From NCBI GenBank assembly GCA_964610055.1, contig CAZSUC010000001.1:588977-652976 (forward strand): 64,000 nt of DNA, in the 5' to 3' direction. Positions 13,548 to 41,676 of this stretch are shown here, in pieces (positions within the stretch are counted from its first letter, which is position 1; each line of letters begins with the position of its first letter). The notes below the pieces were generated by a model. It saw nothing but the letters and a program-made list of their open reading frames with translations, had not been told where the DNA came from and searched no databases. The translations under genes were made by a program, and so were the position numbers. Source of the stretch: an uncultured Candidatus Saccharibacteria bacterium. GTDB lineage: Bacteria; Patescibacteriota; Andersenbacteria; UBA10190.

Positions 13548-13548
13548 A

Positions 13549-22102: not shown

Positions 22103-23503
22103 TCAAACGTTCTTCCGCCGCCGCAAACCGATCGCCAACCACGCCCACGGCATCAACCAAACAAAATACTGATGCAATAAAGTAGGGAAAAACCCGATCA
22201 ATATCGTAAAGATTGCCAGCCCGGCTTCATATATATTTATCTTCCGCCACCAAAGCGCTGCGTACACGAGCGCCATCATTCCTCCCACCACCACCATCTT
22301 CCCCACGCTCCCGAAGTCCAACACAACCGGTAATGCCGGCAAATCATAATCCATCCGCGCCTCCCGCGTCACTGAATATGTCAGCCCCTTCACTACCGCC
22401 GCCGGATTATCCCAGACAAACGGCAAAATACTTACAACCGGTATAGCACTAACCAGCACCGCTGCTAACAACGTGATTTTCACTTTTTTCCCCGGCCGTG
22501 TCCGCTGCCAAACACTAATCAAAAATACCGGCACAAACACCACTGCCACCTGCTTCACCGAAAGCGATACTCCTAAAATCAACGCTGCCCATAACGCATG
22601 CTGCTCGACCAACGTCACTGCCCCTATCAAAGACACAACACCTAAGAAATCCGTATGCGCTATTCGTGCCACATACAAAGACCAGCGGTTAAACAGCCAA
22701 AATAAAGCGGCCAGAACGCCCAAAACCGGCTGCTTCCGCCGCCAAAGCCAAGCCCCTAATAATCCGGCTCCCCCAAACCAAACTATCGTCACAATTACCC
22801 GCCAGACTTCAATCCAGTCTTCATATTCAGTTAAGCCTAGCTGCTGCATTCCGGCCGACATCCAATACACCAAAGGAAAATGAGCCGGATAACCAATACA
22901 AGTATTGTCTAAAGCACATTTATACGGATTTTCTCCTGATTTAATTTGCCCACCCCGTTGCCAATAATATCCAATATCATCTCCCGCCGTATCATGACTC
23001 CAAAAAGAATTTAGAACTGCTGCCAACGCTCCCATTCTCGTCTGAAACACTATGGCTATATTAACGTCCTCATTATCTTCAGCCATATCTTGATTTCCAG
23101 GCTTCCATTTCACCTCATTCCCGTAATTTACAAACCTCAACCTCGCGATTGATGTAGTTTTTGCCTTAATTTTTGCAAATTCAAACACCCATTTCACCTC
23201 TGCCTTTTTACCAATATCTCTTTTTCCACTTACCTCTCGAATCACATTTCCTTGTTCGTCCTGAACTTGCATTATTATTTCACCCGGATTAAGCGCTTTT
23301 TGTTCCTGTGTAATAATTTCCGAAAGTCCGCTCATTGGTACCTGAATTACTTGCTCTAGCTGTTCGTTCGTCTCTAGCACCACAGGATCGATTTCGCCTT
23401 CCTGAGGCTCAATCACACGCACCGGAACTGTAACTGGCCATATTGCCAATATAGTTAGCAACAATACCACTATTCCTAATTGTATATATAAAAACTTTTT
23501 CAT
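22103..23503 (-). CDS. Polytopic membrane protein with an N-terminal extracytoplasmic domain (GT-C/DUF2029-like?)
   Basis: Signal-anchor, a soluble domain of about 200 aa, then about 9 TM helices. Ends ...GLRRRKNV* with TGA. Confidence 0.5.
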   Translation of the reverse strand: MKKFLYIQLGIVVLLLTILAIWPVTVPVRVIEPQEGEIDPVVLETNEQLEQVIQVPMSGLSEIITQEQKALNPGEIIMQVQDEQGNVIREVSGKRDIGKKAEVKWVFEFAKIKAKTTSIARLRFVNYGNEVKWKPGNQDMAEDNEDVNIAIVFQTRMGALAAVLNSFWSHDTAGDDIGYYWQRGGQIKSGENPYKCALDNTCIGYPAHFPLVYWMSAGMQQLGLTEYEDWIEVWRVIVTIVWFGGAGLLGAWLWRRKQPVLGVLAALFWLFNRWSLYVARIAHTDFLGVVSLIGAVTLVEQHALWAALILGVSLSVKQVAVVFVPVFLISVWQRTRPGKKVKITLLAAVLVSAIPVVSILPFVWDNPAAVVKGLTYSVTREARMDYDLPALPVVLDFGSVGKMVVVGGMMALVYAALWWRKINIYEAGLAIFTILIGFFPTLLHQYFVWLMPWAWLAIGLRRRKNV

Positions 23504-23568
23504 TATCTCACGTATTTATAGCATACCGCATTGCCAGGCTCCCCCTCCAGCGATTACCCTTATACTTA

Positions 23569-28313: not shown

Positions 28314-29662
28314 TAAATTCTATATTCTGCTTCGCTTAAATCTTCTTCGCCTACTATCTTAATCGCGCTATTTCCATGGCTTAAATACAAAAGCCGATCA
28401 TAAATATGCACATTTTCCGTACCGATCGCACCCAGCCCCGACACACATTGAATTAAAGGTTGTACATCAACTAAATCAGCCGCACTATTTGTCCTATTTC
28501 CTAATGAAAAATCATTTAAACTCCCTCCTGTTTTCAGGAATGGCCATATCACTAAACCTAAAAACACCACCGCTCCCGCACCACTGACAGTTATTGTTCC
28601 TAATTGAATCCAACGCACACTATATCTCTTTAAAAACTTTCCGTACCCAATGCCGGACAATACCCATATTCCCAAACTTACTAAAACAAAATAACGCAAT
28701 GTAAACCGATCAATCATATACAGTAAAGCGCTTAAATGTATCACTAACCCAATCAGCCACGCCCCAGCCTGCACTCGTTTTCGCGGCAATACAATAGCTA
28801 AAATTACTCCCACACATAATAATCCTAAAATAGTTATTTGCACTCCGCCCGGAAATTCCTGCCCCGTATAACGCGCTATAAACGATGACCCGCTCACAGC
28901 CACGCGCAAAATACCGGGTAAATCATGCCAACGCTGACCCATTAAATCGGCCACAGCCGTCGGATCACCTTGGTCATCCGTAAACAACTGCAACATAATC
29001 ATCTGTGTCCCAAAGGCAGCCCAAAAACCCACCGCTGCCGGCCACCATTCCCACCATGTCCGTAAAATTCGCCGAATCATATGTTTATTACCTTTTCTCT
29101 GTACTGCCTCAACCGTTTCTTTGATTAACCACACTAGTGCAATCGCTAATACCGTCGGCGCAAATAAAATATGCGTATGCATCCCTAAACCAGCCACCAC
29201 CCCCGCTAACAAATGCTTATAACGCCATTTCTTTTCTAACACCCACAATAACAAAAATGACCAGAAGGGAATTAAAGTAATCCCCCAACCAATTCGTTGA
29301 TAAGTTAAATAAATAGGCGAAAATCCCATCATCACTGCTCCTATTAAACCAACTGATCGCCCGAATGTTTTTTCCAACACAGCAATCGCCAATAAATAGG
29401 TTATTATCGACACTATCAGCATCGGCACCCGTAACGCCAAGGCTGTATATCCAAACACTTTAATAAAAGGCACACGCACGTAATCCATTAAAGGCCCAAT
29501 ATATGACCTTTCTCCTTTGAAGACCAACTCTTCTGCTTGAGTCAGCTCCCATGCATTTTCTCCCTCCGACCCCTCATCTCCCATTAACCCCGGCACACTT
29601 CCCAGCCAGGCCATATTAATCACTATAAACAGTCCTAATAAACCTAATTTCACTTTATCCAT
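28232..29662 (-). CDS. GT-C glycosyltransferase, ArnT/PMT (GT39/GT83)-like
   Basis: N-terminal TM followed by a DE-containing first loop (LMGDEGSEGENAW) and about 11 TM helices typical of polyprenyl-P-sugar dependent transferases. Confidence 0.6.
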   Translation of the reverse strand: MDKVKLGLLGLFIVINMAWLGSVPGLMGDEGSEGENAWELTQAEELVFKGERSYIGPLMDYVRVPFIKVFGYTALALRVPMLIVSIITYLLAIAVLEKTFGRSVGLIGAVMMGFSPIYLTYQRIGWGITLIPFWSFLLLWVLEKKWRYKHLLAGVVAGLGMHTHILFAPTVLAIALVWLIKETVEAVQRKGNKHMIRRILRTWWEWWPAAVGFWAAFGTQMIMLQLFTDDQGDPTAVADLMGQRWHDLPGILRVAVSGSSFIARYTGQEFPGGVQITILGLLCVGVILAIVLPRKRVQAGAWLIGLVIHLSALLYMIDRFTLRYFVLVSLGIWVLSGIGYGKFLKRYSVRWIQLGTITVSGAGAVVFLGLVIWPFLKTGGSLNDFSLGNRTNSAADLVDVQPLIQCVSGLGAIGTENVHIYDRLLYLSHGNSAIKIVGEEDLSEAEYRIYYRDGKTESLSGIEACPELKYFVVEKI

Positions 29663-29664
29663 AG

Positions 29665-31620
29665 CTAAAGTTGGTATGCAATATCACCTGACTTAGCGAC
29701 CGGCTCTGTCTCTCCTTTGCGTTGCAAAAACATATTACCGGGACGTAGATCTTCATCAATGTACCGGACAGTTACTGCGTTTCCGGCTGTCCCGTCAGGA
29801 CTGGTAATAGCCACGTAAAATTCATGTCCCGCCGCTTCTGTAATCGGATCAAACTCAAAGCGCTTCCATTCGTTGTCTATAATTTCACTGGCATTCACTG
29901 TCACTCGTCGCAACGCGGTTGCCGAATCTGGCCGCTCCTTAATTTCCAACACGACTTCCGCTGTATTATTTCGACTCGAAAAAGTCGCAAACCCAATTTC
30001 GACCGCATTCCAATTATCCTGCTCGGGCTGCACAGTTTGCCCCACTTCCATTCCGCTCGTTAACTCGCCTACATGCTTCGTGAAATATCCAACTGTCATT
30101 GTCTCGTAAATCCAGGCATAAGGCACACCATGTATTGAAACAGTATGTACTGGCGTCTTGTCTTTCACTTCATCTAAAACGTTACTCGCTTGATCATCCA
30201 GAGCTCTTCCCCCCATATTACGATAAGTAATAATGTAACCTACTCGATAATCGTCTCTCGCACTTAAGCTAAATACTTTTCCCTGAAAATACGGCCGCAT
30301 CACGTTCGGATACCAAGAAGCAACTGTTAATTTGTCTCCCAACGGATTTTCATTCAACCAATCAGCCGCTAAATCTAACCCTTCCCCCCACCCCTGCTGA
30401 CTCAAAGAACGCACATTAGGAAATATCGGATTATTATACGCAATCGCATACGGCGCCCACCGCCACCATGTCACTCCCGCTAATATAACTACCAACCCAA
30501 TCAGAATTAATTTATCTCGCTTCTTACTGTGCCACCACGTCATCCCTTGCGCTAACATCCAACCTGATAGAATAGGCCCTATAACCAATGCCGGCATTGC
30601 GTAACGATCCCCTTTCTTAGCCGCCAACGAAATCAATACTAGAAAACCAACAGCATACACAATCATCCAAACCATTGTCTGCGCTCCTTTATCTCGTCGT
30701 TTAACCGCCGCATATAACACATAAACCACAGCCGCTATACTCAAAATTTGTACCCACGGAGTTACTCTCCCTAAAACTGTTCGCACATAAAACGAGGCTG
30801 GCGAAATAGGCTCATCTGATATTTCTAACGCCACATGCTCATCCTCTAAAACCGTCTGCGTATCTTTAGCAATATATCCTAATTGAAAATCCTTCCGAGT
30901 TAACATTGTCGGCCATAAAATTACCAAGACCACCACCGCTATTACGCCCCACATTGCCATTTCACCTAAAACTCGCTTCCAATTCTTCCCTCGCTCCCAA
31001 TACAAATCAATCATCCACATTAAACCAGCAACTGGCCCCAACCAAAATGCTAATACCATTTTTACTCCTAACGCCGCCCCCGCAAAAACTGCGCTAGTAA
31101 TCAAATAACCAGTCTTACGCCGTCGTCGAAACTGAATAAACCACAACAAAGACGTTAACATCAGCATCGCTTGTAACATATCCAAATGCGCCACCATACT
31201 CATCCCTACTACATACGGCTCCAACGCCAACATTATTCCTGCCAACCACGCCATCTCTTTTCCCCAGATCTGACTTAATAGATACGCCACTAATCCAATC
31301 AGACCTGACACAACTATCGCAACTGGCACAGTCGCTGCTTTTCTAAAGCCAATCACATTATTGTCATCTAATTCCACTCCGCTTATTTTTTCTTTTACCA
31401 CAATTCCCGCTCCCATGATCCACATTCCCGTTGCACCCGGATGACTCGTTAAGAATGTCCCGCTAATATCACCAGCGGCTAACTTAGCGTAAAACTCATT
31501 ACTTCGCATCATCCAGTTTTCTTCATCGGCCGTCATAAACGATCCAATCCCAACCAATCGCACACTTATCGCTAGCATCCCGATTACAATCCCAATTATA
31601 ATGTCTTTTACTTTTATCAT
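29665..31620 (-). CDS. GT-C glycosyltransferase, PMT_2/GT39-like, with a C-terminal extracytoplasmic beta-domain
   Basis: MTADEENWMMRS...TSHPGATGMWIMG first-loop motif. Paralogous to 40168-41676 at both ends (LTVASWYP...ITYRNMGGR). The C-terminal domain RFEFDPI..AITSP..GNAVTV recurs in 41673-44324. Confidence 0.65.
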   Translation of the reverse strand: MIKVKDIIIGIVIGMLAISVRLVGIGSFMTADEENWMMRSNEFYAKLAAGDISGTFLTSHPGATGMWIMGAGIVVKEKISGVELDDNNVIGFRKAATVPVAIVVSGLIGLVAYLLSQIWGKEMAWLAGIMLALEPYVVGMSMVAHLDMLQAMLMLTSLLWFIQFRRRRKTGYLITSAVFAGAALGVKMVLAFWLGPVAGLMWMIDLYWERGKNWKRVLGEMAMWGVIAVVVLVILWPTMLTRKDFQLGYIAKDTQTVLEDEHVALEISDEPISPASFYVRTVLGRVTPWVQILSIAAVVYVLYAAVKRRDKGAQTMVWMIVYAVGFLVLISLAAKKGDRYAMPALVIGPILSGWMLAQGMTWWHSKKRDKLILIGLVVILAGVTWWRWAPYAIAYNNPIFPNVRSLSQQGWGEGLDLAADWLNENPLGDKLTVASWYPNVMRPYFQGKVFSLSARDDYRVGYIITYRNMGGRALDDQASNVLDEVKDKTPVHTVSIHGVPYAWIYETMTVGYFTKHVGELTSGMEVGQTVQPEQDNWNAVEIGFATFSSRNNTAEVVLEIKERPDSATALRRVTVNASEIIDNEWKRFEFDPITEAAGHEFYVAITSPDGTAGNAVTVRYIDEDLRPGNMFLQRKGETEPVAKSGDIAYQL

Positions 31621-31659
31621 GCATTACTTATAGTACAATAATTCTAATTAATAAACCGA

Positions 31660-33930
31660 ATGTCGCCTTTTTCTCGTCCTTACTTTGCCTTATTAATTGT
31701 TAGCGCTTTAGCGCTCTGGCCGCTTTTTTTCGGCCGTTTTTACGGTATTGGCGATACACGCTCCGTTTATATTCCCATCGAGCATTTTTTTGCTGAGCAA
31801 CAACGGCACTTTAATTTACCGGCCTGGATGCCAGACACTGCTTGGGGTTTTCCGGTAATTGCTTCTGCTCAAATCGGTTTCTTTTATCCGCCTCTTTTAC
31901 TGACACGCTTCTTACCTATCTTTATTTACCTGCCGTTATTACTCTGGCTCCACATCTTTTTTCTCGGTATCGGCGCCTATCGTTTGGCCCGAACCCTAAA
32001 TATTAGTCAAAACGGCGCCCTGATTACCGCCCTATCCATTGCTCTTAACGCCTTTCTTTGGCAGCACTTAACCCACCTAAACATTATTTTTGCTTTGGCT
32101 TGGTTTCCTTGGCAATTACTCGCCGCTCATTACTTAGCCAGATCACATCGACCTAATTTCAAACAATTTGCCGGCTTAGTTTTCACTTTAGGCCTCCCGT
32201 TTTTAGCTGGCCAACTTCAAGTTCCTTTTCTCACCGCTCTTTTCTCTACCATTTATTATTTCGTTTCTTTACCCAAAAAGCCTTTCCCCTCTCGACATCT
32301 CCTCATTTTCCTCGGCGCAACTCTTTTGACTATTACTCTCACCGCCGTCCAAACATTTCCCACCCTAGAGCTCACATTCCTTTCCAGCCGTGGATCAACT
32401 AATGAATTTTCTTTGGAACGAGCTAATCAACATAGTTTTCCTATTTATCATCTACCCACCTTACTTTTTCCACGCTTTTTCGGCTCAGATAATACTTATT
32501 GGGGGAAACGTATTGAAATAGAATACGGCTTTTTCTTCGGCGTCATTCCGCTATGCCTCAGCTTTATTGCTATATTCAACAAATCACGTCGTTACCGTTT
32601 CTGGATTATCAGCGGCTTCATAGCTTTTCTGTTAAGCCTGGGCGAATTTTCTCCTTTTCGCTTAGTTGGCTTAGAGCCATCGCTCTGGTACTTTTCTGCT
32701 CCCGCCCGTTGGCTATTCTTCACCGTTTTTTCTGGATCAATCCTTGCTGGTTTTGGTTATGATCTTTTGCCTAATATCTCACCTCGTTACCTGCGCATCC
32801 TTAAATCAACTATTGTAACCATATTAAGCTGCGTCATTTTATATAATCTCGTCCTTTGGCTCTTGCCGGAAAATTTTGCTTCTTATGTTCTAACCTGGTT
32901 GCAATCACAAAATCTCACCGGCGCTCGCGATTCAGCCTATTATTTAGATAAGATTAATTCCTTACTCTCCTCTGCAAAACACACGGGCTTATCACTTGCT
33001 TCGCCATATACTTACATCACTCTCATTCCTTTGCTCGCCATTCCATGGCTCTTCCAAAAACATCACTCGTGGCTTATTCCTCTCACAGCTATTGAACTCA
33101 TCTTAATTGCCAGTACGGCCAATCCAAGTGTTACTTGGTCCAATATTCTAACTCCTCCTGCCAGCATCTCTGCCCTTCCTCAAAGTGTTACCAGCGATCA
33201 CGCTCGCATCATTTCAATCTCAGCTCCCGGCGATACAGGGCTTTGGCTAACTAACCCTGAAACCCGTGCCGATACCGCTCGTCGCGAACAATATCGTCAA
33301 CAACTCGAACCACTCACTCACTCACTTTTTAATCTTGCCGGTTCTCAATGGCCCGCCTCGCTGGATCTACAATCTCAGGCACATACTTTAGAAAATTTAC
33401 TCGAATCACGCCAAGATCAACTATACATTGATTCTGACAAAGCCGCTGCTCTCAATATCGGTGCTGCCTTAATTGCCAACGAAGCTCCCCACACTGTTTC
33501 AGAAGTACTACCCCAAAATATTGCACCGAATATCTTCTTGTATTCCTTCTCTCCTCAACCTCGCGCTTCTCTTTTAACTGAAGACCAAACCGAATTAGCG
33601 CTTCCATACGACAACACTAATCCTAATCACCAAACTTATACCCTCTCATCATCTACTCCCGCGACCCTTATTATTCGCGACACCTGGTACCCTGGTTGGC
33701 AAGCCACACTTGACGACCAACCCGTTAACATTGATACCTATAACAATATTTTCCGTTCTGTTTCGGTTCCCTCCGGATCACATACCGTTTCTTTCACCTA
33801 TCATCCTACTTGGCTTTATTACGGTCTAGCTATTTCGCTTACCACTCTTGGTTTTCTAATATTTGTGCTGATGTACAATAATCATATCTACACTGTTCCC
33901 TTTATTTTAAGGAGGAAGACCATTGGCTGA
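31660..33930 (+). CDS. YfhO-family membrane protein
   Basis: 756 aa. The N-terminal region is paralogous to 23569-26346 (GIGDTRSVYIPIEHFFAEQQ...NLPAWMPDTAWGFPVIA versus LDDLKLFYYPIETIYAEFQ...HLPLWSNVFGFGHPLLA). Confidence 0.7.
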   Translation: MSPFSRPYFALLIVSALALWPLFFGRFYGIGDTRSVYIPIEHFFAEQQRHFNLPAWMPDTAWGFPVIASAQIGFFYPPLLLTRFLPIFIYLPLLLWLHIFFLGIGAYRLARTLNISQNGALITALSIALNAFLWQHLTHLNIIFALAWFPWQLLAAHYLARSHRPNFKQFAGLVFTLGLPFLAGQLQVPFLTALFSTIYYFVSLPKKPFPSRHLLIFLGATLLTITLTAVQTFPTLELTFLSSRGSTNEFSLERANQHSFPIYHLPTLLFPRFFGSDNTYWGKRIEIEYGFFFGVIPLCLSFIAIFNKSRRYRFWIISGFIAFLLSLGEFSPFRLVGLEPSLWYFSAPARWLFFTVFSGSILAGFGYDLLPNISPRYLRILKSTIVTILSCVILYNLVLWLLPENFASYVLTWLQSQNLTGARDSAYYLDKINSLLSSAKHTGLSLASPYTYITLIPLLAIPWLFQKHHSWLIPLTAIELILIASTANPSVTWSNILTPPASISALPQSVTSDHARIISISAPGDTGLWLTNPETRADTARREQYRQQLEPLTHSLFNLAGSQWPASLDLQSQAHTLENLLESRQDQLYIDSDKAAALNIGAALIANEAPHTVSEVLPQNIAPNIFLYSFSPQPRASLLTEDQTELALPYDNTNPNHQTYTLSSSTPATLIIRDTWYPGWQATLDDQPVNIDTYNNIFRSVSVPSGSHTVSFTYHPTWLYYGLAISLTTLGFLIFVLMYNNHIYTVPFILRRKTIG

Positions 33931-34126
33931 TGACAAAGACCAAGACGAACGAAACCGACGACTTACAGAAGCCCTTGCGCCGTTAGGGCGAGGCGAGCTT
34001 CCTGACGGTACACCCATTGACCTAGCCGCCATCTCTGAACGTGCAAATCGGAAAGCCTGGATTTTTGCGCGCCGGCTTAGAGATAGCGCAGTACGTGACA
34101 ACCGCCGATACAAGGGTCAACACTAG
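33923..34126 (+). CDS. Small basic hypothetical protein, TTG start (paralog 1)
   Basis: TTG at 33923 lies 8 nt after AGGAGG. The 67-aa product shares ERNR(R/Q)LT.AL.PL...DL.AI... and a C-terminal YKG with the ORF at 34285. A strong intrinsic terminator follows. Confidence 0.55.
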   Translation: MADDKDQDERNRRLTEALAPLGRGELPDGTPIDLAAISERANRKAWIFARRLRDSAVRDNRRYKGQH

Positions 34127-34141
34127 CCCACCTCCTTACGT

Positions 34142-34169
34142 CCCGTGCCACATCGGCACGGGCTTTTTT
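34142..34169 (+). terminator. Rho-independent terminator after small paralog 1
   Basis: CCCGTGCC-ACATC-GGCACGGG 8-bp GC-rich stem followed by C+TTTTTT. Confidence 0.75.
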
Positions 34170-34284
34170 ACAATTTATTCCGTCCCAGTCTCTCATACCG
34201 GTATAAAATTTCTACTTTTGTAGATCGATATAGTATATTAACTTTATCTTTTGTTCCCTTCACTTTTAGTAGGAGGATAAACCG

Positions 34285-34476
34285 TTGGATAATGAAAACG
34301 AACGAAACCGACAACTTACCGTGGCTCTCAATCCATTAAGGACAGGTCTATCATTATCTGACCTCTCCGCAATCGCTGACCATGCCACAGACGACGCCAT
34401 GTCGCATGCCAAAGCAGTTCGTTCAGGAACAGCAAGGACCAGAGCTAAACACAGGTTAGGCCCATACAAAGGCTGA
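34285..34476 (+). CDS. Small basic hypothetical protein, TTG start (paralog 2)
   Basis: Same SD and TTG context as 33923 (AGGAGGATAAACCGTTGGAT). 63 aa, with protein-level similarity to paralog 1. Confidence 0.55.
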   Translation: MDNENERNRQLTVALNPLRTGLSLSDLSAIADHATDDAMSHAKAVRSGTARTRAKHRLGPYKG

Positions 34477-34509
34477 CCTTTGCGCACCATCACAGTCAGG
34501 AGAATTTTC

Positions 34510-34788
34510 ATGGCAGCAGAAACTTATCATTTCATCCTTTTAGGAAGCCCTCTCTCACGAACAGACTTCCTTAATCCGCTTAAAAGGCGGATACAATTCG
34601 ACATGGGCAAGACAGCTCTCGCTCAAGTCCCAGGCATACGTTTCGGTACCGAATTTCCTATTGCTTGCGCCGTAACCATCACCTGCCCGCGAGAATCACT
34701 GCCAGAACTCCACCGGATCATGACTGAACACAGTTTTCAAGAAGGTAGCCAGGAGATTTCAATCAAAACAGCCAGAGAAATCGCCTAA
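34510..34788 (+). CDS. Hypothetical protein
   Basis: 92-aa ORF from an ATG with an AGGAGA SD 7 nt upstream. Followed by a hairpin plus T-run. Confidence 0.45.
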   Translation: MAAETYHFILLGSPLSRTDFLNPLKRRIQFDMGKTALAQVPGIRFGTEFPIACAVTITCPRESLPELHRIMTEHSFQEGSQEISIKTAREIA

Positions 34789-34814
34789 CACACCTCCTCC
34801 TTCATCATCCTACT

Positions 34815-34841
34815 CCACCAAGCCAGTCTTGGTGGATTTTT
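34815..34841 (+). terminator. Rho-independent terminator between the convergent 34510 (+) and 34840 (-) genes
   Basis: CCACCAAG-CCAGT-CTTGGTGG 8-bp stem followed by ATTTTT. Confidence 0.65.
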
Positions 34842-36135
34842 ATATCCACATCCTATCAATCAATTCTCGCGGTTGTCCGTACCGTAATCGATTTACCGCC
34901 TGCACCTCTACCTTCCCTATAGCCGTTTCTAAACTTAACGGCGGCAAACTCTGCCCCCGAAATGCTCGGTACGTAATTCCGGCCTGAGTCAGACGGATAA
35001 AAAAGTGATATGGCGGCAAGTCCTGAAAATCCTCCACTTGAATCGCCTGCCCCTTATCCCACGATGTTTGCTGAAAGGCCGGCAGTAACGCTTCCGCATC
35101 ATTTGCCCCTATTTGAAAAGCCACCAACGTTCCTACATTACCCAACACCGCCTCTCGCACCTCGTCAGTTAATTGCGCCACATACTGATTAGTTAAATGC
35201 ACAGCTAATCCGTACTTGCGCGCTTCCGACAACATAGAAATGAATGTTTCCGTCATCACATTCTGAAATTCATCGACGTATAAATAAAAGGGAACCCTGT
35301 CTTCGACCGGCATATCGGCACGACGCATTATCGCCGCCTGTAACTTTGCCATCAAAATCAATCCCAACATATATGAATTTAATTCTCCCAGTCTTCCTTT
35401 AGACAAATTCACAATCAAAATTTTGCCATGATTCACAATCTCATCAAACGCCAAAGCATTGCGCTTCTGACCGATGATATTGCGCATCGTCGTATTTGTC
35501 ATAAAGCGACCAAACTTGGAAGTAAAATAATTCAACATTTCCGAGCGATGAAACTGCGCGGTTTTTGCCATCTGCTCTTCCCAAAATGACAATACGACCC
35601 GATCTCGCACATGGCGACGTTTTTCTTGCTCAAATTTTTCATCCGTAAATAAGCGCGGAATCTCAATCAAAGTTCCGCCCGCCGGATCGGCCATAACTGT
35701 TAAAGCCGCATTTCGCATCCAGTGTTCAAACTGCGGCCCAATAATTCCCTGCTGATCCGGATCAAATAGTTTATAAAATATCTGAATCGCCTCGGCCACC
35801 AAAAAATCTTTCTCACTTTCAGTTTTACCATCCAATAAGTTCAAGCCTAATGGCCATTCCGTATCAGCCGGATCAAACAACACTACATCATCCAACCGCT
35901 CCGCCGGAATATTATTTAACAGCCAATCGCACACTTCTCCATGCGGATCAACAAAACAACACCCCGCCCCAGCCTGAATATCCTGCAAAATCATATTTTG
36001 ATACAAAGTCGATTTACCCGTCCCAGTTTTTCCAATGCAATACATATGTCGCATCCGATCTTGCGGTGCTGTTTGAATACTGCGCATTTGATTGCGAAAT
36101 TCAGCGTGTCCAATTACATTCATTCTTTCTGTCAT
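34840..36135 (-). CDS. Soluble VirD4/TraD/TraG-like P-loop ATPase (FtsK-HerA superfamily, type IV coupling-protein-like)
   Basis: Walker A CIGKTGTGKST, downstream FVDPHGE (DPxGE motif) and Walker B FYLYVDEFQNV. No N-terminal TM segment. Terminal gene of a 4-gene minus-strand operon. Confidence 0.65.
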   Translation of the reverse strand: MTERMNVIGHAEFRNQMRSIQTAPQDRMRHMYCIGKTGTGKSTLYQNMILQDIQAGAGCCFVDPHGEVCDWLLNNIPAERLDDVVLFDPADTEWPLGLNLLDGKTESEKDFLVAEAIQIFYKLFDPDQQGIIGPQFEHWMRNAALTVMADPAGGTLIEIPRLFTDEKFEQEKRRHVRDRVVLSFWEEQMAKTAQFHRSEMLNYFTSKFGRFMTNTTMRNIIGQKRNALAFDEIVNHGKILIVNLSKGRLGELNSYMLGLILMAKLQAAIMRRADMPVEDRVPFYLYVDEFQNVMTETFISMLSEARKYGLAVHLTNQYVAQLTDEVREAVLGNVGTLVAFQIGANDAEALLPAFQQTSWDKGQAIQVEDFQDLPPYHFFIRLTQAGITYRAFRGQSLPPLSLETAIGKVEVQAVNRLRYGQPRELIDRMWI

Positions 36136-36136
36136 T

Positions 36137-36361
36137 TCAGCTCCTTTCTACCATTGTAAAATAATTAGCCGGAATAGGACGTGGCGGCAATCCCGGTCGC
36201 ATCACCATAACTACTTTTGTTTCCACCTTAGCTTCAGACGTAATCTTCACTGTCCGCCGCCATGCTTCCAAACGGTTTTTAATTACTCTCTGCGTTTCTA
36301 TTGGCAGCCAATGCTTAATTCGCTCATACTCCTCTTCTACTTTGTGTAATTTTGCTATCAT
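36137..36361 (-). CDS. Small hypothetical protein, translationally coupled
   Basis: Start taken at the ATG in an ATGA overlap with the Clp-like gene stop (MIAKLHKVEEEYERIK...). 74 aa. Its stop is 1 nt before the downstream ATG. Confidence 0.45.
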   Translation of the reverse strand: MIAKLHKVEEEYERIKHWLPIETQRVIKNRLEAWRRTVKITSEAKVETKVVMVMRPGLPPRPIPANYFTMVERS

Positions 36362-38043
36362 ATTGTTTCTTTCATCATCCATTGCCCGATCGCTGATTCC
36401 GCCGTTTGTTCTAGCCATCTTTTCAACGGCCTAACCCCGAACCGCGGATCATATTTCTGCTCAATGTGTTGTCTAATCATATTATCCGACATCGACAAAT
36501 TAACTCCCAAATGACTGAATCGTCTTTCAATCTTCTGTAGTTCCAACCGTCCGATCATCACTAAAGTTTCCGGCGCAAACGGAGCAAAAACAGCAATTCC
36601 CTCAAACCGATTCAAAAACTCCCACCGAAAATATTTAGTCAGCAATGGCAACATCCGCCGACTTAACCATTCCGCACTTGTTACATCCTCTCCTGCCTGC
36701 CAATCAGTCACAATTTCACTTATCCCTATATTCGAAGTCGCCACAATCACGGTTTTCCGGAAATCGATTGTTCGTCCTTGCCCATCAGTTAAACGCCCAT
36801 CTTCTAACACTTGTAAAAAAATATCAAACACCGCTTTATCGGCTTTTTCAATTTCATCCAATAAAACTAACGAATATGGCCTTTGTTGTACTGGATTAGT
36901 TAATTGACCACCACTCTCATACCCAACATAACCAGGTGGCGCACCAATTAAACGCTGTACATTATGTGCTTCCTGGTATTCCGACATATCAACCCTTACC
37001 ATCGCCTTATCTCCGCCGTACAATTCTCGCGCCAACACACGCGCCACCTCTGTTTTACCGACTCCGGATGGACCTAAAAACAAAAATGAACCCAATGGTC
37101 GATCCGGATTCTTCAATCCTAACCATGACCTTTCGATTACTTTTGTTACCATATTTACTGCTTGATCCTGACCAATGACCTGCGCTGCTAATCTACCCCC
37201 CAACCCAGCAATGGCCTTCCTATCTCGCGTTTGAACTTTTATTGTCGACATCCCCAACTTATCACTCAAAACCCGCTGCGCATCTTCATATGCCACAATC
37301 CTCCGCCCCTGCACCACCGCCTCCGCTCCAATGTCATCTAAAAACCTAATTGCCCGTTCGGGCATCGCTAAGCTCGCTGGTAACTGACTCGCTAAATCAT
37401 AGATTGCTTCCGGCATATTAGCAGCCATCTTAATATTATGTTTGAATCCAAAATAAGCGGCGCGATCTCTTAAAATTTCCACCACATCTGCTTTTCCTAA
37501 TTCATCTAATCGAATCCATTCGAACTCACGTACATACTTCGGATAATTTTCCTTAAATTTTATTTCTCCTTCTAACGACAACGCTAACACTAATCTATGC
37601 CTCTGTTTCTGCCAAAACTTACTCCACACATCCGCCATCTGCGCTGTATTCATCACATACTCCAACAGCACCTCTGCCTTATCAATCACCAAAATACAGG
37701 CTGGTAGCGCTCCTAGTGCTTCTCCGTAAAGCCGTAATTTCGCGGCCGGATCATGCGCTCGATTCATTTTTTCCTGCCACCATTTCAAATCTAACTCCAG
37801 AATTGGTGTTTGAATTATCCCCTGCAAACTGCCTTTGACCGCCGCCTGCGCCAACCCTCTCAACAACGCTGTTTTGCCTACTCCTTCTCCTCCTGTCACC
37901 ACCACGTTATTCATTTGATCACGCTCAAATACTCGCGCCATCAAACTCAACTCTCGCTCCCGACCTCTCACTGGCCACTGACGAACTTGAGTAGCCTCTC
38001 GCACTAAATCAATTATATGTATTGTTTCTAATCGCTCAGGCAT
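36358..38043 (-). CDS. Clp/Hsp100-family double AAA+ ATPase (ClpB/ClpA-like, lacking N- and M-domains)
   Basis: D1 Walker A VVVTGGEGVGKTAL with a degenerate D1 Walker B (ILVIDKAE). D2 Walker A FLFLGPSGVGKTEVAR, Walker B LVLLDEIEKA, and sensor FLQVLEDGRLTDGQGRTIDFRKTVIVATSNIG, all characteristic of ClpB D2. Confidence 0.75.
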   Translation of the reverse strand: MPERLETIHIIDLVREATQVRQWPVRGRERELSLMARVFERDQMNNVVVTGGEGVGKTALLRGLAQAAVKGSLQGIIQTPILELDLKWWQEKMNRAHDPAAKLRLYGEALGALPACILVIDKAEVLLEYVMNTAQMADVWSKFWQKQRHRLVLALSLEGEIKFKENYPKYVREFEWIRLDELGKADVVEILRDRAAYFGFKHNIKMAANMPEAIYDLASQLPASLAMPERAIRFLDDIGAEAVVQGRRIVAYEDAQRVLSDKLGMSTIKVQTRDRKAIAGLGGRLAAQVIGQDQAVNMVTKVIERSWLGLKNPDRPLGSFLFLGPSGVGKTEVARVLARELYGGDKAMVRVDMSEYQEAHNVQRLIGAPPGYVGYESGGQLTNPVQQRPYSLVLLDEIEKADKAVFDIFLQVLEDGRLTDGQGRTIDFRKTVIVATSNIGISEIVTDWQAGEDVTSAEWLSRRMLPLLTKYFRWEFLNRFEGIAVFAPFAPETLVMIGRLELQKIERRFSHLGVNLSMSDNMIRQHIEQKYDPRFGVRPLKRWLEQTAESAIGQWMMKETI

Positions 38044-38044
38044 A

Positions 38045-39895
38045 TTAGACCATCATTGTCCGATTAACAGTTGTGCCACCCGTAATCTGACTGGATCTTA
38101 TCGTTCCTTCCTCTTCATCTTCTGTTCCTATAATTATCCCGCCACGATGACGCGCTTCTGCCGCTAACTCAATCTCTGTCCCTCTTTGCTTAATCTGACC
38201 AACATAATTATCTAAATCTACTCGCCAACCCGGCTTCTCTCTTTCATTTCTCCAATTTTCTCTTTCCGCCTCTGCTCTCCATTCATATCCAACCGGACCA
38301 TCTGTCACTTGCTCTAAACTATCCGGCTTCGTTTTCGCCTCATAAAAACGATACCTAACTGCATCCCCATCTCGCTCCACTACCGTTACATCCAACACTT
38401 CGCCTTTTACCGTACGCTCTCCCGAAAAATACTGCTGTTCTCTGTTTACTGCGCCTCTAATCACTTTTTCTAGCTCTCCTCGCTCTTCCACCGGCCACAA
38501 ATCCATCACACTCTTTTCTATTTGCTCCGGCATCAACGTTAAAGCGACTTTCTCTTCCATATCTAACTCAACATCAATACCCTGAATTTCCTCTCTTCTT
38601 ACCTCCGCCTTATAAACCGTTTCTACCTTCGGGTACTCTTTCTTTTCCCCAACCTTCACATCTACATTCACATCTACATCTATATTCTCTACATTATTTT
38701 CTCTTCCCTTTTCTAAAATCACTGGTCTTTCAGCTATTTTTTTCTCCTCCGTAATCGCAACTTCAACTCTTTCCTTAACTCTCGTAACGCTTTGCTCCGA
38801 TAAAACCTGGTCGGCTTTCACATCCACCGCTTTCGGCACTAGTCCCGGAAACATCTCCTGTAAACTCACTTCTACTTTCCTAGATTCATTTTTCTGTCCT
38901 AAATCAGTTTGCACTACTTCTGGCATTGAAGCAGCTTCTCTTTCCCCCGCATTTACATACTTTATCTCTATGGCTTCACTCGGCGTATTTTCTATCACCC
39001 GTACCTCTCCTGTCTTCGTCTCACCAGGTTCCTCTTGCTTTAACAACTCCTTACGCAACTCCTCATGATTCCAAACTTCTTCTAGCTGCGGCTCTTCAAC
39101 CTGCCTCTGCTCCACAAACACATCAGAATTAATCGTATTTTCAGATGCTTGTTCTTCTAGTTCTTCTCTTTGATCATCTACTTCCACTCTTTCACCAACC
39201 ATATCCATCGCATTTATATAATTTATCTCAATGCCTTCACTCGACGTATTTTCTATCACTTGCACCTCTTCTTCTCTCACCTCATTGCTTTGCTGTTCTT
39301 GTACCACTACCACTTCTTCTCTAACAAGCTCTTCACTTATCTCATCAACCATACTTTCTGCTTGCGCTTCAATCTCTACTTGTTCTACTTGCGCTTCATC
39401 TTCACTGCCTATCCACTCGTCGCTTTCTTCATTCAAATTAACCGGTACTTCACGAAATTGCACTAACATATATTCTGTTTCTCGTTCTCCCCACTCATTC
39501 ACTTCGTCTTTGACCACCACTGCACAACTTTTAAACTCATGATAAGCCACATATCCACTTTTCGCGCCACATAATGTTTCAAATTGCCCTTCTTCATCCA
39601 TTCCTTCACTACTAATCTCCTGATCATTCCAAAATACCCGTCTCTTACCAGTCGCGTCTTCCCTCACCACGCATTTATATGTCTGCGCCATTTCTAGTCT
39701 TTGCCCTGTCCCTTGCTCTAAATCAACTCGAGCTGATTCTAATCTCATTGTCATTCGCTCATGTTCTTCTGTCTGGCGTTCCTTTTCCGATGCTAATTCT
39801 TCTGCTTGAACCTGTACCTCAGATTCAATCTCTTCAACATCCAACATTTCCTCTAGGCTTTCTTCGGTTTCCGCTATGTTTATACTTTCAGGCAT
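38045..39895 (-). CDS. Highly acidic glutamate-rich protein with an internal sequence repeat (no recognisable domain)
   Basis: 616 aa from the ATG at 39895, which lies 9 nt after AGGAG. Low-complexity E/V/Q-rich sequence with duplicated segment QVIENTSSEGIEINYINA / RVIENTPSEAIEIKYVNA. Less acidic C-terminal 150 aa. The ORF-track start at 39925 would include the SD. Confidence 0.6.
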   Translation of the reverse strand: MPESINIAETEESLEEMLDVEEIESEVQVQAEELASEKERQTEEHERMTMRLESARVDLEQGTGQRLEMAQTYKCVVREDATGKRRVFWNDQEISSEGMDEEGQFETLCGAKSGYVAYHEFKSCAVVVKDEVNEWGERETEYMLVQFREVPVNLNEESDEWIGSEDEAQVEQVEIEAQAESMVDEISEELVREEVVVVQEQQSNEVREEEVQVIENTSSEGIEINYINAMDMVGERVEVDDQREELEEQASENTINSDVFVEQRQVEEPQLEEVWNHEELRKELLKQEEPGETKTGEVRVIENTPSEAIEIKYVNAGEREAASMPEVVQTDLGQKNESRKVEVSLQEMFPGLVPKAVDVKADQVLSEQSVTRVKERVEVAITEEKKIAERPVILEKGRENNVENIDVDVNVDVKVGEKKEYPKVETVYKAEVRREEIQGIDVELDMEEKVALTLMPEQIEKSVMDLWPVEERGELEKVIRGAVNREQQYFSGERTVKGEVLDVTVVERDGDAVRYRFYEAKTKPDSLEQVTDGPVGYEWRAEAERENWRNEREKPGWRVDLDNYVGQIKQRGTEIELAAEARHRGGIIIGTEDEEEGTIRSSQITGGTTVNRTMMV

Positions 39896-40167
39896 ACAAA
39901 AAACTCCTACATGCACAACACGCATGAGGAGAAATCACTAAAAATCCTTATGCGCGTAGGCTCAACAAAGGATTCAGGCACTCTGACTTATGGCTTTTAG
40001 CCCATCACAGTTGCGGCATACCAGCGCCGGATTCTCACCGGCTTTCCCTGATCACACTTTTCAGTGCGCGTGGTGCGAACCACGCCAATCCTCTTTAAAA
40101 ATTAATGTGCACTCTTAGCTTACCGCCGTTCCCTTGGCCCCACAATCAGTTTTTTGCACAGGCTCGT

Positions 40168-41676
40168 TTATTTAGCGTATATCCAAACATAAGGCACGTC
40201 GTGCACCTTTATAACCTCCACCGGCACGACATCTTTCATTGCCGCTAACGCCTGACTCGCCAAAGTGTCTTCTCCGCGACCACCCATGTTTCTATAGGTC
40301 ACAATATAATCAACATGTTCATTCTCCCGAGCCGCTAAACTAACTACCTCGCCCCTAAAATATGTTTGCAACACTTGCGGATACCAAGATGCAACCGTTA
40401 ATTGTTCCGCCTCTGTCTGCGCGTTTAACCAAGCTGCCGCCGCTTCTAACCCCTCACCCCATCCTTGCTGACTTAGTGGCCGTATCTCCGGTAATAAAGA
40501 ATTATTATACGCAATCAAATAACTATCTCGCCAATTAGCCCATGTCCAAACGGATAGAAATACCACCACGCCTATCGCAAACCCTTGCCATGTTTTTTTT
40601 CGTCTCGCCAAAGTTATCTTTGCCGTTACCCATCCCGTCAACACCGGCCCCACAACCAACGCTGGCAATGCATACCGATCCGCTTTTTTCGCCGCCCAAG
40701 TCATAATAACCAAAAAGCCAATCGCATAAACATACATCCAAACCATTTCTTGGCTGTGCTTTTGTTTCCGCACTATTACTATTAATGCTGCTACCCAGCC
40801 AAATAACACCAGCGGCGTACTCCGACCCAATGCGGTTCGCATATAAAAAGTCGCGGGCTGAATCGCATCCGTCCCAGCATCTAACTCAACATGCTCCCAA
40901 GTAACTGCTGTCCCAATATCACGCGTAAATGAACGACTCATATCTGCTTTCACCCACGCCGCTGGCCATGCCACCCAAAACACCAGTCCTGCTACTCCAA
41001 TCACCGTGCCCAAAGTTCGCAACATTATATTTATTTTTCCTGACTTGCCCCATAACTTCCACACCACCCACCCCATCATCATTGGCACTAGCCATAACGC
41101 TAAAATTAATTTCGTTGCCGCTGCTAGCCCAAACCAAATACCTGCTCCAACTAGCCAACGCCATTTTTGCTTTTGCCACCAGACCATCCACGCCAACCAA
41201 CTATTCAACATGAACAATGCCAATAATCCATCCAAATGCACAATCTGCGTCGCTCCTGCTAAATACGGATCTAACGCCAAAAATATTCCAGCTAACCAAC
41301 CGACTGGCGCCCCTCCTAAGATCGTCAACATAAATGCCGCTATCCCAATCATCCCAGCCGCCGCTAAACTCACGGGCAGAACAGCTGCCTTACGAAAATG
41401 TTGTAAATTACCTGGCTGAACTGTTACTCCTAAACGTGTTTCTTGCACCACTTCCCCTGCCCCTGCTAGCCACATTAAAGGCGCCCCCGGATGAGTTGTC
41501 ACAAATGTCGACGCTGGATCCATGGCTCGAATTGCCTGCCAATATTGAGCGCTGCGTAACATCCACGCCTCTTCATCCACTGTCATATATTGCCCTAACC
41601 CCGGCCACCGCGCCAATAACGCTAAAACTCCGATACTAACTGGTATTATTCCTGCTTTCGCTTTAATCCAATTCAC
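40168..41676 (-). CDS. GT-C glycosyltransferase, PMT_2/GT39-like (paralog of 29665-31620)
   Basis: MTVDEEAWMLRS...TTHPGAPLMWLAG and C-terminal LTVASWYPQVLQTYFRGEVVSLAARE...VTYRNMGGRGED align to the 29665 ORF. Confidence 0.65.
   Translation of the reverse strand: MNWIKAKAGIIPVSIGVLALLARWPGLGQYMTVDEEAWMLRSAQYWQAIRAMDPASTFVTTHPGAPLMWLAGAGEVVQETRLGVTVQPGNLQHFRKAAVLPVSLAAAGMIGIAAFMLTILGGAPVGWLAGIFLALDPYLAGATQIVHLDGLLALFMLNSWLAWMVWWQKQKWRWLVGAGIWFGLAAATKLILALWLVPMMMGWVVWKLWGKSGKINIMLRTLGTVIGVAGLVFWVAWPAAWVKADMSRSFTRDIGTAVTWEHVELDAGTDAIQPATFYMRTALGRSTPLVLFGWVAALIVIVRKQKHSQEMVWMYVYAIGFLVIMTWAAKKADRYALPALVVGPVLTGWVTAKITLARRKKTWQGFAIGVVVFLSVWTWANWRDSYLIAYNNSLLPEIRPLSQQGWGEGLEAAAAWLNAQTEAEQLTVASWYPQVLQTYFRGEVVSLAARENEHVDYIVTYRNMGGRGEDTLASQALAAMKDVVPVEVIKVHDVPYVWIYAK

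What the first reader, a model, noticed from the sequence alone, without database searches (positions are those of the whole stretch)
34840..36135. Soluble VirD4/TraD-like coupling-protein homolog without a membrane anchor
The P-loop, the DPHGE motif and DEFQ Walker B fit the FtsK-HerA / T4CP clade. However the 431-aa protein lacks the N-terminal TM helices of coupling proteins, and no relaxase, VirB4 or pilin genes are in the window. It pairs with the AAA+ unfoldase instead. This could be a stand-alone substrate-translocating or DNA-pumping ATPase used in a non-conjugative context.
Basis: partly seen in the sequence, partly recalled or inferred. Interest (0 to 1): 0.5.

Follow-up and report, generated by a model that had tools for sequence, protein, structure and literature searches.

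The report
B12-riboswitch operon with anchorless coupling-protein ATPase
The gene is a real, membrane-anchor-less relative of conjugation "coupling" ATPases, but in these ultra-small (CPR/Patescibacteria) bacteria it is the last gene of a conserved four-gene operon that also encodes a ClpB-like unfoldase and sits behind a vitamin-B12 riboswitch, which ties a widespread gene of unknown role to B12 supply.

Summary
ORF 34840-36135 (-) encodes a 431-aa protein with Walker A, DPHGE and DEFQ motifs. It passes the Pfam thresholds for TrwB_AAD_bind, TraG-D_C and DUF87, has no transmembrane segment, and its model folds like TrwB, VirB4-CTD and HerA. The window holds no T4SS, relaxase or integrase genes.

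It is not a stand-alone gene. It ends a tightly coupled operon: a hypervariable acidic protein, a ClpB-like AAA+ protein without N- and M-domains, a small helical protein, then this ATPase. That order is kept in 66 of 80 CPR species representatives.

The operon follows a cobalamin riboswitch. In the window the match is just below Rfam's threshold. A cobalamin-class riboswitch is found in 52 of 56 related loci that could be tested. Most leaders checked also carry a terminator, and modelling fits an OFF switch.

The acidic proteins share little except a C-terminal tail (consensus LNGITL[KR]xAA).

Best reading: a cytoplasmic two-ATPase module, induced when B12 is scarce, that works on the acidic protein. 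It is not conjugation. What the module finally achieves is unknown.

The abundance of orphan T4CP homologues in CPR is published. I found no paper describing the operon or the B12 control.

The parts
39957..40105 (-). Cobalamin (B12) riboswitch aptamer in the 5' leader of the operon
   Evidence: Rfam RF00174 scores 27.4 bits (gathering score 31.5), E = 3.7e-5, with the full model matched and an intact GGGAA..CCGGUGAGAAUCCGG..GCCGCAACUG core. The whole-window gathering scan found nothing. Riboswitches that pass Rfam's threshold (RF01482, RF00174, RF01689) occupy the same position in related loci. My own covariance model hits 48 related loci and the window.
39896..39931 (-). Expression platform: a hairpin at 39931-39904 (CUCCUCAUGCG...UGCAUGUAGGAG) followed by UUUUUUGU. 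Its 3' arm contains the AGGAG ribosome-binding site for the ATG at 39895.
   Evidence: Folding. The terminator forms when the platform is folded alone, but not in the minimum-energy fold of the whole leader used. One search folded a slightly different stretch and its minimum-energy fold does contain this hairpin. This is modelling, not proof.
38045..39895 (-). Gene 1: acidic protein of 616 aa (25% D+E, 126 Glu) with no detectable homologues, Pfam family or TM segment. It ends ...GGTTVNRTMMV, a diverged form of the family tail LNGITL[KR]xAA.
   Evidence: (only itself is found, as a 616-aa product). A single-sequence AlphaFold model has mean pLDDT 37.9, which is uninformative. The mechanical ORF extends to 39925, but the ribosome-binding site and P0121 support a start at 39895.
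36358..38043 (-). Gene 2: ClpB/ClpA-like double AAA+ protein of 561 aa without N-domain or M-domain. D1 keeps Walker A but lacks the Walker B Glu (IDKAE) and the pore-loop KYR. D2 is fully canonical (GPSGVGKT, GAPPGYVGY, LLDEIEKA). No ClpP-docking [ILV]G[FL] loop was seen. It starts 1 nt after the gene 1 stop codon.
36137..36361 (-). Gene 3: small helical protein of 74 aa from the ATG that overlaps the ClpB-like stop codon (ATGA). The open frame extends to 36418 (93 aa). It keeps the conserved C-terminal ...NYF motif.
   Evidence: A positional ORF of 70-141 aa is present in the class-1 loci. 68 of 69 of these ORFs, including the window's, form one BLASTP single-linkage family. Alignment. No Pfam match.
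34840..36135 (-). Gene 4, the finding: a TM-less VirD4/VirB4-clade P-loop ATPase of 431 aa with a helical insertion domain at about residues 100-235. It starts 1 nt after the gene 3 stop codon, behind GAAAGGAG.
34814..34836 (.). GC-rich hairpin just after the stop codon of gene 4. It is a terminator-like site for the convergent + strand ORFs and the likely end of the operon.
   Evidence: No conserved fifth gene lies downstream in related loci.

Best explanation
The 431-aa protein is a soluble ring-type ATPase of the VirD4/VirB4/HerA clade. It has left the conjugation and T4SS gene context. It is the fourth product of a self-contained cytoplasmic operon that is vertically conserved in CPR/Patescibacteria: acidic protein, ClpB-like unfoldase, small helical protein, ATPase. 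A cobalamin riboswitch with a terminator-type platform precedes the operon, so the four proteins are most likely made only when adenosylcobalamin is scarce. The proposed mechanism is inferred, not shown. The ClpB-like ring has one active tier (D2), no ClpP loop and no Hsp70-coupling M-domain. It and the coupling-protein-like hexamer would act together on the co-encoded polyanionic protein. That protein would be recognised through its conserved C-terminal tail (LNGITL[KR]xAA), in the way that T4CPs, EccC-type ATPases and Clp unfoldases read C-terminal signals. The small protein would serve as an adaptor or regulator on the highly conserved helical insertion domain of the ATPase. The client would then be unfolded and handed on, probably to a membrane conduit encoded elsewhere such as the chromosomal CPR T4SS, as part of the response to B12 shortage. 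Shown here: family, fold, lack of an anchor, operon conservation, the riboswitch association and the tail motif. Inferred: OFF logic, physical interaction of the four proteins, that the substrate is a protein, and the final destination.

For: Operon: there are 1-nt gaps or an ATGA overlap between all four genes. The ClpB-like gene lies directly upstream in 66 of 80 GTDB loci, and in L002 and L003. The small-ORF family and the acidic upstream ORFs are conserved in position. No conserved flanking gene exists.

Riboswitch: searches give 52 of 56 testable class-1 loci and 0 of 14 class-2 loci. All hits are on the operon strand, ending from about 130 nt inside the called ORF start (mis-called starts) to 727 nt upstream of it, most within about 140 nt. 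A hairpin plus T-run follows the aptamer in 21 of 28 leaders. The terminator forms in 17 of 20 platforms folded alone but in only 6 of 20 full-leader minimum-energy folds.

Tail: 35 of 57 non-redundant acidic proteins end in AA, against about 2-5% of other ORFs.

Unfoldase anatomy.

Conserved blocks: the two longest invariant blocks of the ATPase (GPQFEHWxRN and FHxSEMLNYFxSKFG) lie in the helical insertion, not in the ATP site.

Literature: 5,713 VirD4-type homologues occur in 2,918 of 3,035 CPR genomes, only 148 near virB4, and exaptation has been suggested (PMC12102498). VirB4 occurs in only 2,417 genomes.
Against: None of the four proteins has a membrane segment, and no channel gene is in the operon or the window, so any export step depends on an unidentified partner. 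According to PMC12102498, the T4CP homologue of S. epibionticum was not essential although the T4SS was; I did not check whether that homologue belongs to this class. The window's riboswitch scores below Rfam's gathering score, and the window's acidic protein lacks the AA ending. The direction of the switch is only modelled. Most members of this ATPase clade move DNA, and nothing here shows that the substrate is a protein. The acidic protein could simply be an unstable regulator carrying an ssrA-like degron.
Confidence: 0.4

Rival explanations
1. It is a B12 acquisition or trafficking machine in the strict sense. The ATPases would energise uptake of corrinoids, or strip B12 from tightly binding carrier or host proteins by unfolding them. 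The acidic protein would be a secreted or tethered scavenger.
For: In a lineage that cannot make B12, membership of the B12 regulon usually marks transporters or salvage genes (established knowledge of cobalamin regulons). In metagenome locus L093, a membrane-anchored relative of this ATPase (788 aa, 49% identical in the ATPase domain) is the last gene, 3 nt after its neighbour, of a cluster: NrdJ, then a riboswitch, DUF4430, DUF6580 and a PduO adenosyltransferase. NrdJ lies about 1.1 kb downstream of the operon in L056 and L068.
Against: The acidic proteins are hypervariable with no detectable fold or Pfam domain, which fits poorly with specific B12 binding. The operon has no membrane component. 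The L093 arrangement was seen once among 15 class-2 loci, so it may be simple adjacency. None of the 14 GTDB class-2 loci has a riboswitch.
Confidence: 0.2
2. It is a DNA motor. Under B12 shortage the B12-dependent ribonucleotide reductase fails, and the ATPase pulls in or processes foreign DNA as a source of deoxynucleotides. This would be a B12-independent bypass, the other classic content of B12 regulons.
For: The closest folds are DNA translocases or DNA-associated ATPases: TrwB, HerA, DptH and FtsK. NrdJ is the typical B12 enzyme next to such riboswitches in the loci seen here. A polyanionic protein could mimic DNA.
Against: It does not explain a conserved Clp-type protein unfoldase with a canonical substrate pore loop, nor the conserved C-terminal peptide tail. 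No nuclease, ComEC/ComEA-like or DNA-binding partner is in the operon.
Confidence: 0.15
3. It is an ordinary conjugative coupling protein of an integrated element, or an anti-phage defence ATPase of the HerA type.
For: Pfam T4CP domains. Weak PADLOC hits to mad8 and HerA models. Plasmid-borne relatives exist.
Against: No relaxase, VirB4, pilin or integrase is in 64 kb of ordinary chromosomal envelope-glycan genes. Identity of 57-70% across many CPR classes indicates vertical inheritance. Plasmid relatives are at most 34% identical. The PADLOC hits cover only generic P-loop regions and no defence partner (Sir2, NurA, DUF4297) is present. Metabolite-riboswitch control is not a known feature of either kind of system.
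Confidence: 0.04

Closest known systems
Type IV coupling proteins TrwB (R388), VirD4, Cag-beta, DotL
   Same: RecA-like nucleotide-binding domain with the same Walker A, DPxG and DEFQ motifs, plus a helical insertion domain. The length equals the soluble TrwB-deltaN70 fragment (431 aa against 437). These are the best sequence hits in the PDB and the top Foldseek hits. Like T4CPs it may read C-terminal signals and bind small regulators, as Cag-beta binds CagZ.
   Different: No N-terminal membrane domain. Not linked to VirB4, a relaxase or any T4SS gene. Only 13-15% identity. NCBIfam T4CP models match far below their cut-offs. It sits in an operon with a Clp-type unfoldase under a B12 riboswitch.
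TraJ of pIP501 (Gram-positive T4CP without its own membrane anchor)
   Same: It is a precedent for a coupling protein lacking transmembrane helices. TraJ is thought to be tethered by a separate small membrane protein, TraI (PMC12857230).
   Different: TraJ is encoded inside a conjugation operon with a relaxase and VirB4. Here the adjacent small protein has no hydrophobic segment, so it cannot be a TraI-like anchor.
VirB4 C-terminal domain, DptH/DndH C-domain and HerA
   Different: It lacks the VirB4 N-terminal domain and the HerA HAS-barrel. No NurA, Sir2 or Dnd partners are present.
Type VII secretion pair EccC/EssC (FtsK-like) plus EccA (AAA+)
   Different: EccC is membrane-anchored with three ATPase domains, and EccA is not a Clp/Hsp100 protein. 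There is no homology beyond the superfamily level.
ClpB / ClpV / ClpA (Hsp100) for the partner gene
   Same: D2 is about 55-60% identical to the second nucleotide-binding domain of ClpB and ClpC, with all catalytic and pore motifs. The two-tier layout aligns with ClpA residues 187-714.
   Different: No N-domain, no M-domain (ClpB residues about 408-532 have no counterpart), a D1 without catalytic Glu or pore Tyr, and no ClpP-binding loop.
Cobalamin riboswitch regulons (RF00174, RF01482, RF01689)
   Same: Aptamer core, position in the 5' leader and a terminator platform. Related loci pass Rfam's thresholds.
   Different: The regulated genes are not transporters, cob/cbi genes, metE or nrd. I found no paper linking cobalamin riboswitches to CPR or to T4CP- or Clp-like genes.

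Membership tests
Type IV coupling protein (VirD4/TraG/TraD/TrwB) | N-terminal transmembrane domain anchoring the hexamer at the membrane | tested here: not met
   Walker A starts at residue 35. The highest KD(19) is 1.35, against 2.29 for the MurJ control.
Type IV coupling protein (VirD4/TraG/TraD/TrwB) | Nucleotide-binding domain with Walker A and B recognised by the family profiles | tested here: met
   TrwB_AAD_bind 31.2 bits (threshold 20.5) and TraG-D_C 28.4 bits (threshold 22). TrwB is the best PDB sequence hit. However, the NCBIfam TraD and VirD4-like models match far below their cut-offs.
Type IV coupling protein (VirD4/TraG/TraD/TrwB) | All-alpha domain inserted in the nucleotide-binding domain | tested here: inconclusive
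   The model has an all-helical insertion at about residues 100-235, between strands 84-87 and 239-243, and aligns along its length with TrwB at TM about 0.6. Domain-level homology to the TrwB all-alpha domain was not tested separately.
Type IV coupling protein (VirD4/TraG/TraD/TrwB) | Genetic and functional linkage to a T4SS (VirB4) and/or a relaxase | tested here: not met
   None in the 64-kb window. Published census: 148 of 5,713 CPR homologues lie near virB4. The rest of the genome was not available.
HerA helicase / DUF87 | DUF87 ATPase core plus an N-terminal HAS-barrel and a nuclease or effector partner (NurA, Sir2, DUF4297) | tested here: not met
   DUF87 scores 24.9 bits against 23.2, which is marginal. 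Only about 30 residues precede Walker A. No partner is in the operon.
FtsK/SpoIIIE | Match to the FtsK_SpoIIIE motor-domain profile | tested here: not met
VirB4 | Two-domain protein of about 800 aa with the VirB4 N-terminal domain, encoded with VirB3/VirB6 | tested here: not met
Cobalamin riboswitch (RF00174 clan CL00101), leader of the operon | Score at or above Rfam's gathering threshold | tested here: inconclusive
   Window: 27.4 bits against 31.5, E = 3.7e-5, full-length match. Elements at the same position in 11 of the 17 related loci scanned with Rfam pass thresholds for RF01482, RF00174 or RF01689.
Cobalamin riboswitch | Binds adenosylcobalamin and switches expression | not testable with these tools
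   Only thermodynamic modelling of the terminator and antiterminator was possible.
ClpB disaggregase (partner gene 36358-38043) | N-domain, two active AAA+ tiers and the coiled-coil M-domain that couples to DnaK | tested here: not met
   The alignment to ClpB skips residues 1-171 and about 408-532. D1 lacks the Walker B Glu and the pore Tyr across 64 homologues. The NCBIfam ClpB model scores 391 bits against a cut-off of 1232.

The most novel reading that the evidence does not exclude
CPR bacteria have a previously unrecognised B12-starvation machine. It is built from a coupling-protein-type ring ATPase and a stripped-down Clp unfoldase, and it threads a fast-evolving polyanionic protein recognised by a C-terminal xAA tail. 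The purpose would be either to deliver that protein to the host through the essential chromosomal T4SS, or to harvest B12 or deoxynucleotides. This would be a new functional class in cobalamin regulons and the missing role for the thousands of orphan T4CP homologues in this radiation.
Probability: 0.25. Interest if true: 0.85.

Novelty: new variant of a known kind. Interest (0 to 1): 0.68.

Why it matters
CPR/Patescibacteria make up a large share of bacterial diversity and live off host cells, and most of their conserved genes have no known role. A 2025 census found a T4CP homologue in 96% of CPR genomes, nearly always away from the T4SS, and could only suggest exaptation. This analysis gives that orphan three things. 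It has fixed partners: a minimal Clp unfoldase, a small adaptor-like protein and a hypervariable acidic client with a conserved tail. It has a regulatory input, cobalamin. It has a directly testable prediction: expression and phenotype should depend on B12 supply. That could also explain why the gene looked dispensable in rich co-culture. The analysis also adds a new gene set to cobalamin regulons, and it is an example of a conjugation motor re-used in a purely cytoplasmic operon.

Tried and rejected
1. Conjugative element. Rejected: the Pfam scan of 53 window ORFs of 120 aa or more (57 proteins in all) found only envelope-glycan, LepA, MurJ and similar genes.

2. Defence system. The PADLOC scan gave only generic P-loop hits.

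3. Homologues of the acidic and small proteins. The word-indexed search found only the proteins themselves. BLAST and jackhmmer of the window's acidic protein against 58 positional counterparts found nothing. Homology of the small protein was recovered only through single-linkage among positional ORFs.

4. Pfam on 10 long acidic counterparts: no domains.

5. Single-sequence AlphaFold model of the acidic protein: mean pLDDT 37.9, uninformative, so no fold search was run.

6. Reciprocal test. I scanned metagenomes for the riboswitch core to see whether it always precedes this operon. The core proved generic to cobalamin riboswitches of many bacteria. Of 120 loci, only L093 held a relative of the ATPase. 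The test says nothing about specificity within CPR.

7. The afdb50 fold library was unavailable.

8. I looked for a shared rule that terminator 5' arms pair with the aptamer GGUGA core. It holds in only a few loci, so I dropped it in favour of the folding comparison.

9. ssrA mimicry. The one tmRNA tag read (L042, ending ...PALA) resembles that organism's acidic-protein ending (...VAFA) only loosely. This remains an idea, not evidence.

Full report
**Observation**

The ORF at 34840-36135 (- strand) exists and encodes 431 aa. Walker A (GKTGTGKS) is at residues 35-42, DPHGE at 63-67 and VDEFQ at 287-291. Pfam places it above the gathering score in TrwB_AAD_bind, TraG-D_C and, marginally, DUF87. 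FtsK_SpoIIIE is below threshold. NCBIfam conjugative TraD/VirD4 models match only far below their cut-offs.

No hydrophobic segment is present. The highest 19-residue hydropathy is 1.35, against 2.29 for MurJ from the same window. Only 34 residues precede the P-loop.

**Genome context**

The window is ordinary chromosome. It holds glycosyltransferases, a nonulosonic-acid cluster, rhamnose and heptose pathway genes, many PMT_2/YfhO membrane glycosyltransferases, LepA, MurJ and a DUF4012 protein. No T4SS, relaxase, pilin or integrase families appear.

The exact protein lies on a 698-kb contig. More than 5,000 homologues were found. The top 120 are 57-70% identical and 397-471 aa long, and where they are named they come from CPR lineages such as Parcubacteria, Doudna-, Portnoy-, Colwell- and Paceibacteria.

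**The operon**

The gene is the last of four tightly packed genes on the - strand:

- an acidic protein, 38045-39895;
- a ClpB-like AAA+ protein, 36358-38043, starting 1 nt after the previous stop codon;
- a small helical protein, 36137-36361, whose ATG overlaps the ClpB-like stop codon (ATGA);
- the ATPase, starting 1 nt after the previous stop codon, behind GAAAGGAG.

The same order occurs in L002 and L003 and in 66 of 80 loci from GTDB species representatives. Each of these has a 70-141-aa ORF in the gap and a large ORF upstream of the ClpB-like gene. The small proteins form one family: 68 of 69 join by single linkage, and they share a central helix and a C-terminal L..YF motif. The upstream proteins are acidic (D+E typically about 20%) and none has a TM-like segment. 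No flanking gene is conserved beyond these four.

The other 14 loci form a second class. They are 51-55% identical in the ATPase domain, and 12 of the 14 proteins are 837-853 aa long (the other two are 591 and 819 aa). These 14 proteins have an N-terminal extension, about 400 aa in most, that starts with a hydrophobic segment in 13 of them. They have no ClpB-like neighbour.

In a library clustered at 50% identity, the soluble class collapses into a handful of representatives. Nearly all other top hits are 600-2,000 aa long with the ATPase domain after a long N-terminal extension (7,097 representatives at E <= 1e-30). The anchorless 430-aa form is thus one tight orthologous group within a large expanded family.

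**The partner proteins**

The ClpB-like protein aligns with ClpB residues 172-407 and 533-840, so it has neither N-domain nor M-domain. Across 64 homologues, D1 keeps GxxGxGKT but has D-[D/N/K] in place of the Walker B D-E, and it has no pore-loop KYR. D2 is invariant in Walker A and B, the GAPPGYVGY pore loop, sensor 1 and the Arg motifs. No ClpP-docking tripeptide is seen. It is most simply read as a one-motor unfoldase that is coupled neither to Hsp70 nor to a peptidase.

The acidic protein of the window has no homologue detectable by sequence and no Pfam family. Ten long counterparts also have no Pfam domain. Despite this divergence, 35 of 57 non-redundant counterparts end in Ala-Ala, with the consensus L-N-G-I-T-L-[KR]-x-A-A. 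That compares with about 2-5% of other ORFs in the same loci. The window's copy ends ...GGTTVNRTMMV, a diverged version. The N-termini are acidic with scattered aromatic residues.

**The riboswitch**

While reading the leader I recognised a cobalamin-riboswitch core. Rfam RF00174 matches 39957-40105 (-) over its full length at 27.4 bits, below the gathering score of 31.5, with E = 3.7e-5 for the 501-nt stretch. The whole-window gathering scan lists nothing.

At the same position in related loci, Rfam-passing AdoCbl or Cobalamin riboswitches occur in 7 of 9 loci. AdoCbl-II occurs in 4 of 8 further loci.

A covariance model built from nine of these elements hits 48 class-1 loci and the window. 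Every hit is on the operon strand, and most end within about 140 nt of the called acidic ORF start (range 129 nt inside it to 727 nt upstream). It hits no class-2 locus. Together this makes 52 of 68 class-1 loci. Twelve of the 16 negatives are cut off upstream, which leaves 52 of 56 testable.

Most of the leaders checked have a GC-rich hairpin plus T-run before the start codon (21 of 28). In the window this is 39931-39904 followed by UUUUUUGU and the ATG at 39895, and the hairpin's 3' arm holds the ribosome-binding site. The terminator forms in 17 of 20 platforms folded alone. It appears in only 6 of 20 full leaders, where aptamer sequences compete for pairing. For the window itself the result depends on the stretch folded: the terminator is absent from the minimum-energy fold but present. 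Overall this matches the usual OFF design. It is a model, not a measurement.

**Literature**

A 2025 survey reports 5,713 VirD4-type homologues in 2,918 of 3,035 CPR genomes. Only 148 lie near virB4, VirB4 occurs in 2,417 genomes, the S. epibionticum homologue is non-essential, and exaptation is suggested (PMC12102498). That paper mentions neither ClpB nor a riboswitch. No paper in the library combines "cobalamin riboswitch" with Patescibacteria or CPR. TM-less T4CPs have a precedent in pIP501 TraJ, which is thought to be tethered by TraI (PMC12857230).

**Interpretation**

Solid points:

- It is a VirD4/VirB4-clade ATPase without an anchor.
- It is not part of a conjugative element.
- It is one subunit of a conserved cytoplasmic four-gene module.
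- The module belongs to the cobalamin regulon of many CPR lineages.

My preferred mechanism (confidence about 0.4) is that B12 scarcity switches on two ring ATPases that process the co-encoded polyanionic protein through its conserved C-terminal tail. The small protein would act as an adaptor on the extremely conserved helical insertion. The client would then be passed on, probably to a membrane conduit encoded elsewhere.

There are two main rivals:

- A strict B12-acquisition or extraction role. It gains some support from one metagenome locus (L093) where a membrane-anchored paralogue closes a cluster of NrdJ, riboswitch, DUF4430, DUF6580 and PduO, and from NrdJ lying 1.1 kb downstream of the operon in two loci.
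- A DNA-motor role that bypasses B12-dependent ribonucleotide reduction. This fits the fold relatives but leaves the unfoldase and the tail unexplained.

Ordinary conjugation and phage defence are effectively excluded.

**Novelty and score**

The existence and abundance of orphan T4CP homologues in CPR is published. I found no description of the operon, the stripped-down Clp partner, the tail motif or the B12 control. I rate it a new variant of a known kind, with interest 0.68. A specialist would be surprised by a cobalamin riboswitch in front of a coupling-protein and Clp operon, and the finding makes the role of a near-universal CPR gene directly testable.

Noticed in passing
window 1-64000: There is an extreme and uniform strand asymmetry. 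The + strand is 15.0% G and 28.7% C (GC skew about -0.3 in every 2-kb bin), whichever strand the genes are on. This is much stronger than usual replication skew.
   Followed up: no
window 33923-34788 (+): Two small paralogous ORFs of 67 and 63 aa share the motif ERNR[RQ]LT.AL.PL. A 102-aa ORF follows. They fill the 0.9-kb gap between the YfhO-like gene and the ATPase gene. None has a Pfam match.
   Followed up: partly
window 22103-33930 and 40168-44324: Eight large membrane-protein genes (ALG3-, PMT/PMT_2- and YfhO-like, plus one with no Pfam match) flank the operon on both sides. They are embedded in about 45 kb of sugar-nucleotide and glycosyltransferase genes, including a NeuB/nonulosonic-acid cluster at 10381-16444.
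   Followed up: no
L093 1489-8777: A metagenome contig carries, in order: class II (B12-dependent) ribonucleotide reductase, a cobalamin riboswitch core, a DUF4430 protein, a DUF6580 membrane protein, a PduO-type adenosyltransferase, a 165-aa unknown protein and a 788-aa membrane-anchored paralogue of the ATPase. The last gene starts 3 nt after its neighbour.
   Followed up: partly
L077 4565-14212; L205 (Rhodococcus plasmid pYYL1.1) 5167-7845: Class-2 loci can hold two tandem long paralogues (845 and 1,040 aa) together with a DUF5663 protein and a Sigma70_r4/HARE-HTH protein. The same pairing of a DUF87 ATPase with DUF5663 occurs on an actinobacterial conjugative plasmid.
   Followed up: no
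L090 1438-3667; L147 4646-9277: In other metagenome contigs the same riboswitch core precedes an unannotated ORF of 526-652 aa. That ORF is followed by an NrdR-like gene and, in L147, by NrdJ. This may be another B12-regulated gene of unknown function.
   Followed up: no
L204 (Sulfitobacter plasmid) 6980-8167: The closest plasmid relative is a stand-alone 395-aa protein annotated as a T4SS DNA-binding domain protein (34% identity). It lies among transposases with no T4SS nearby, so anchorless orphan copies also exist outside CPR.
   Followed up: no
L002 17227-17532; L042 16280-16670: Rfam finds a group I intron in L002. In L042 Rfam and ARAGORN find a tmRNA, and ARAGORN reads its tag as ANLYTRMKTAMANAFAPSFVPALA.
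   Followed up: no
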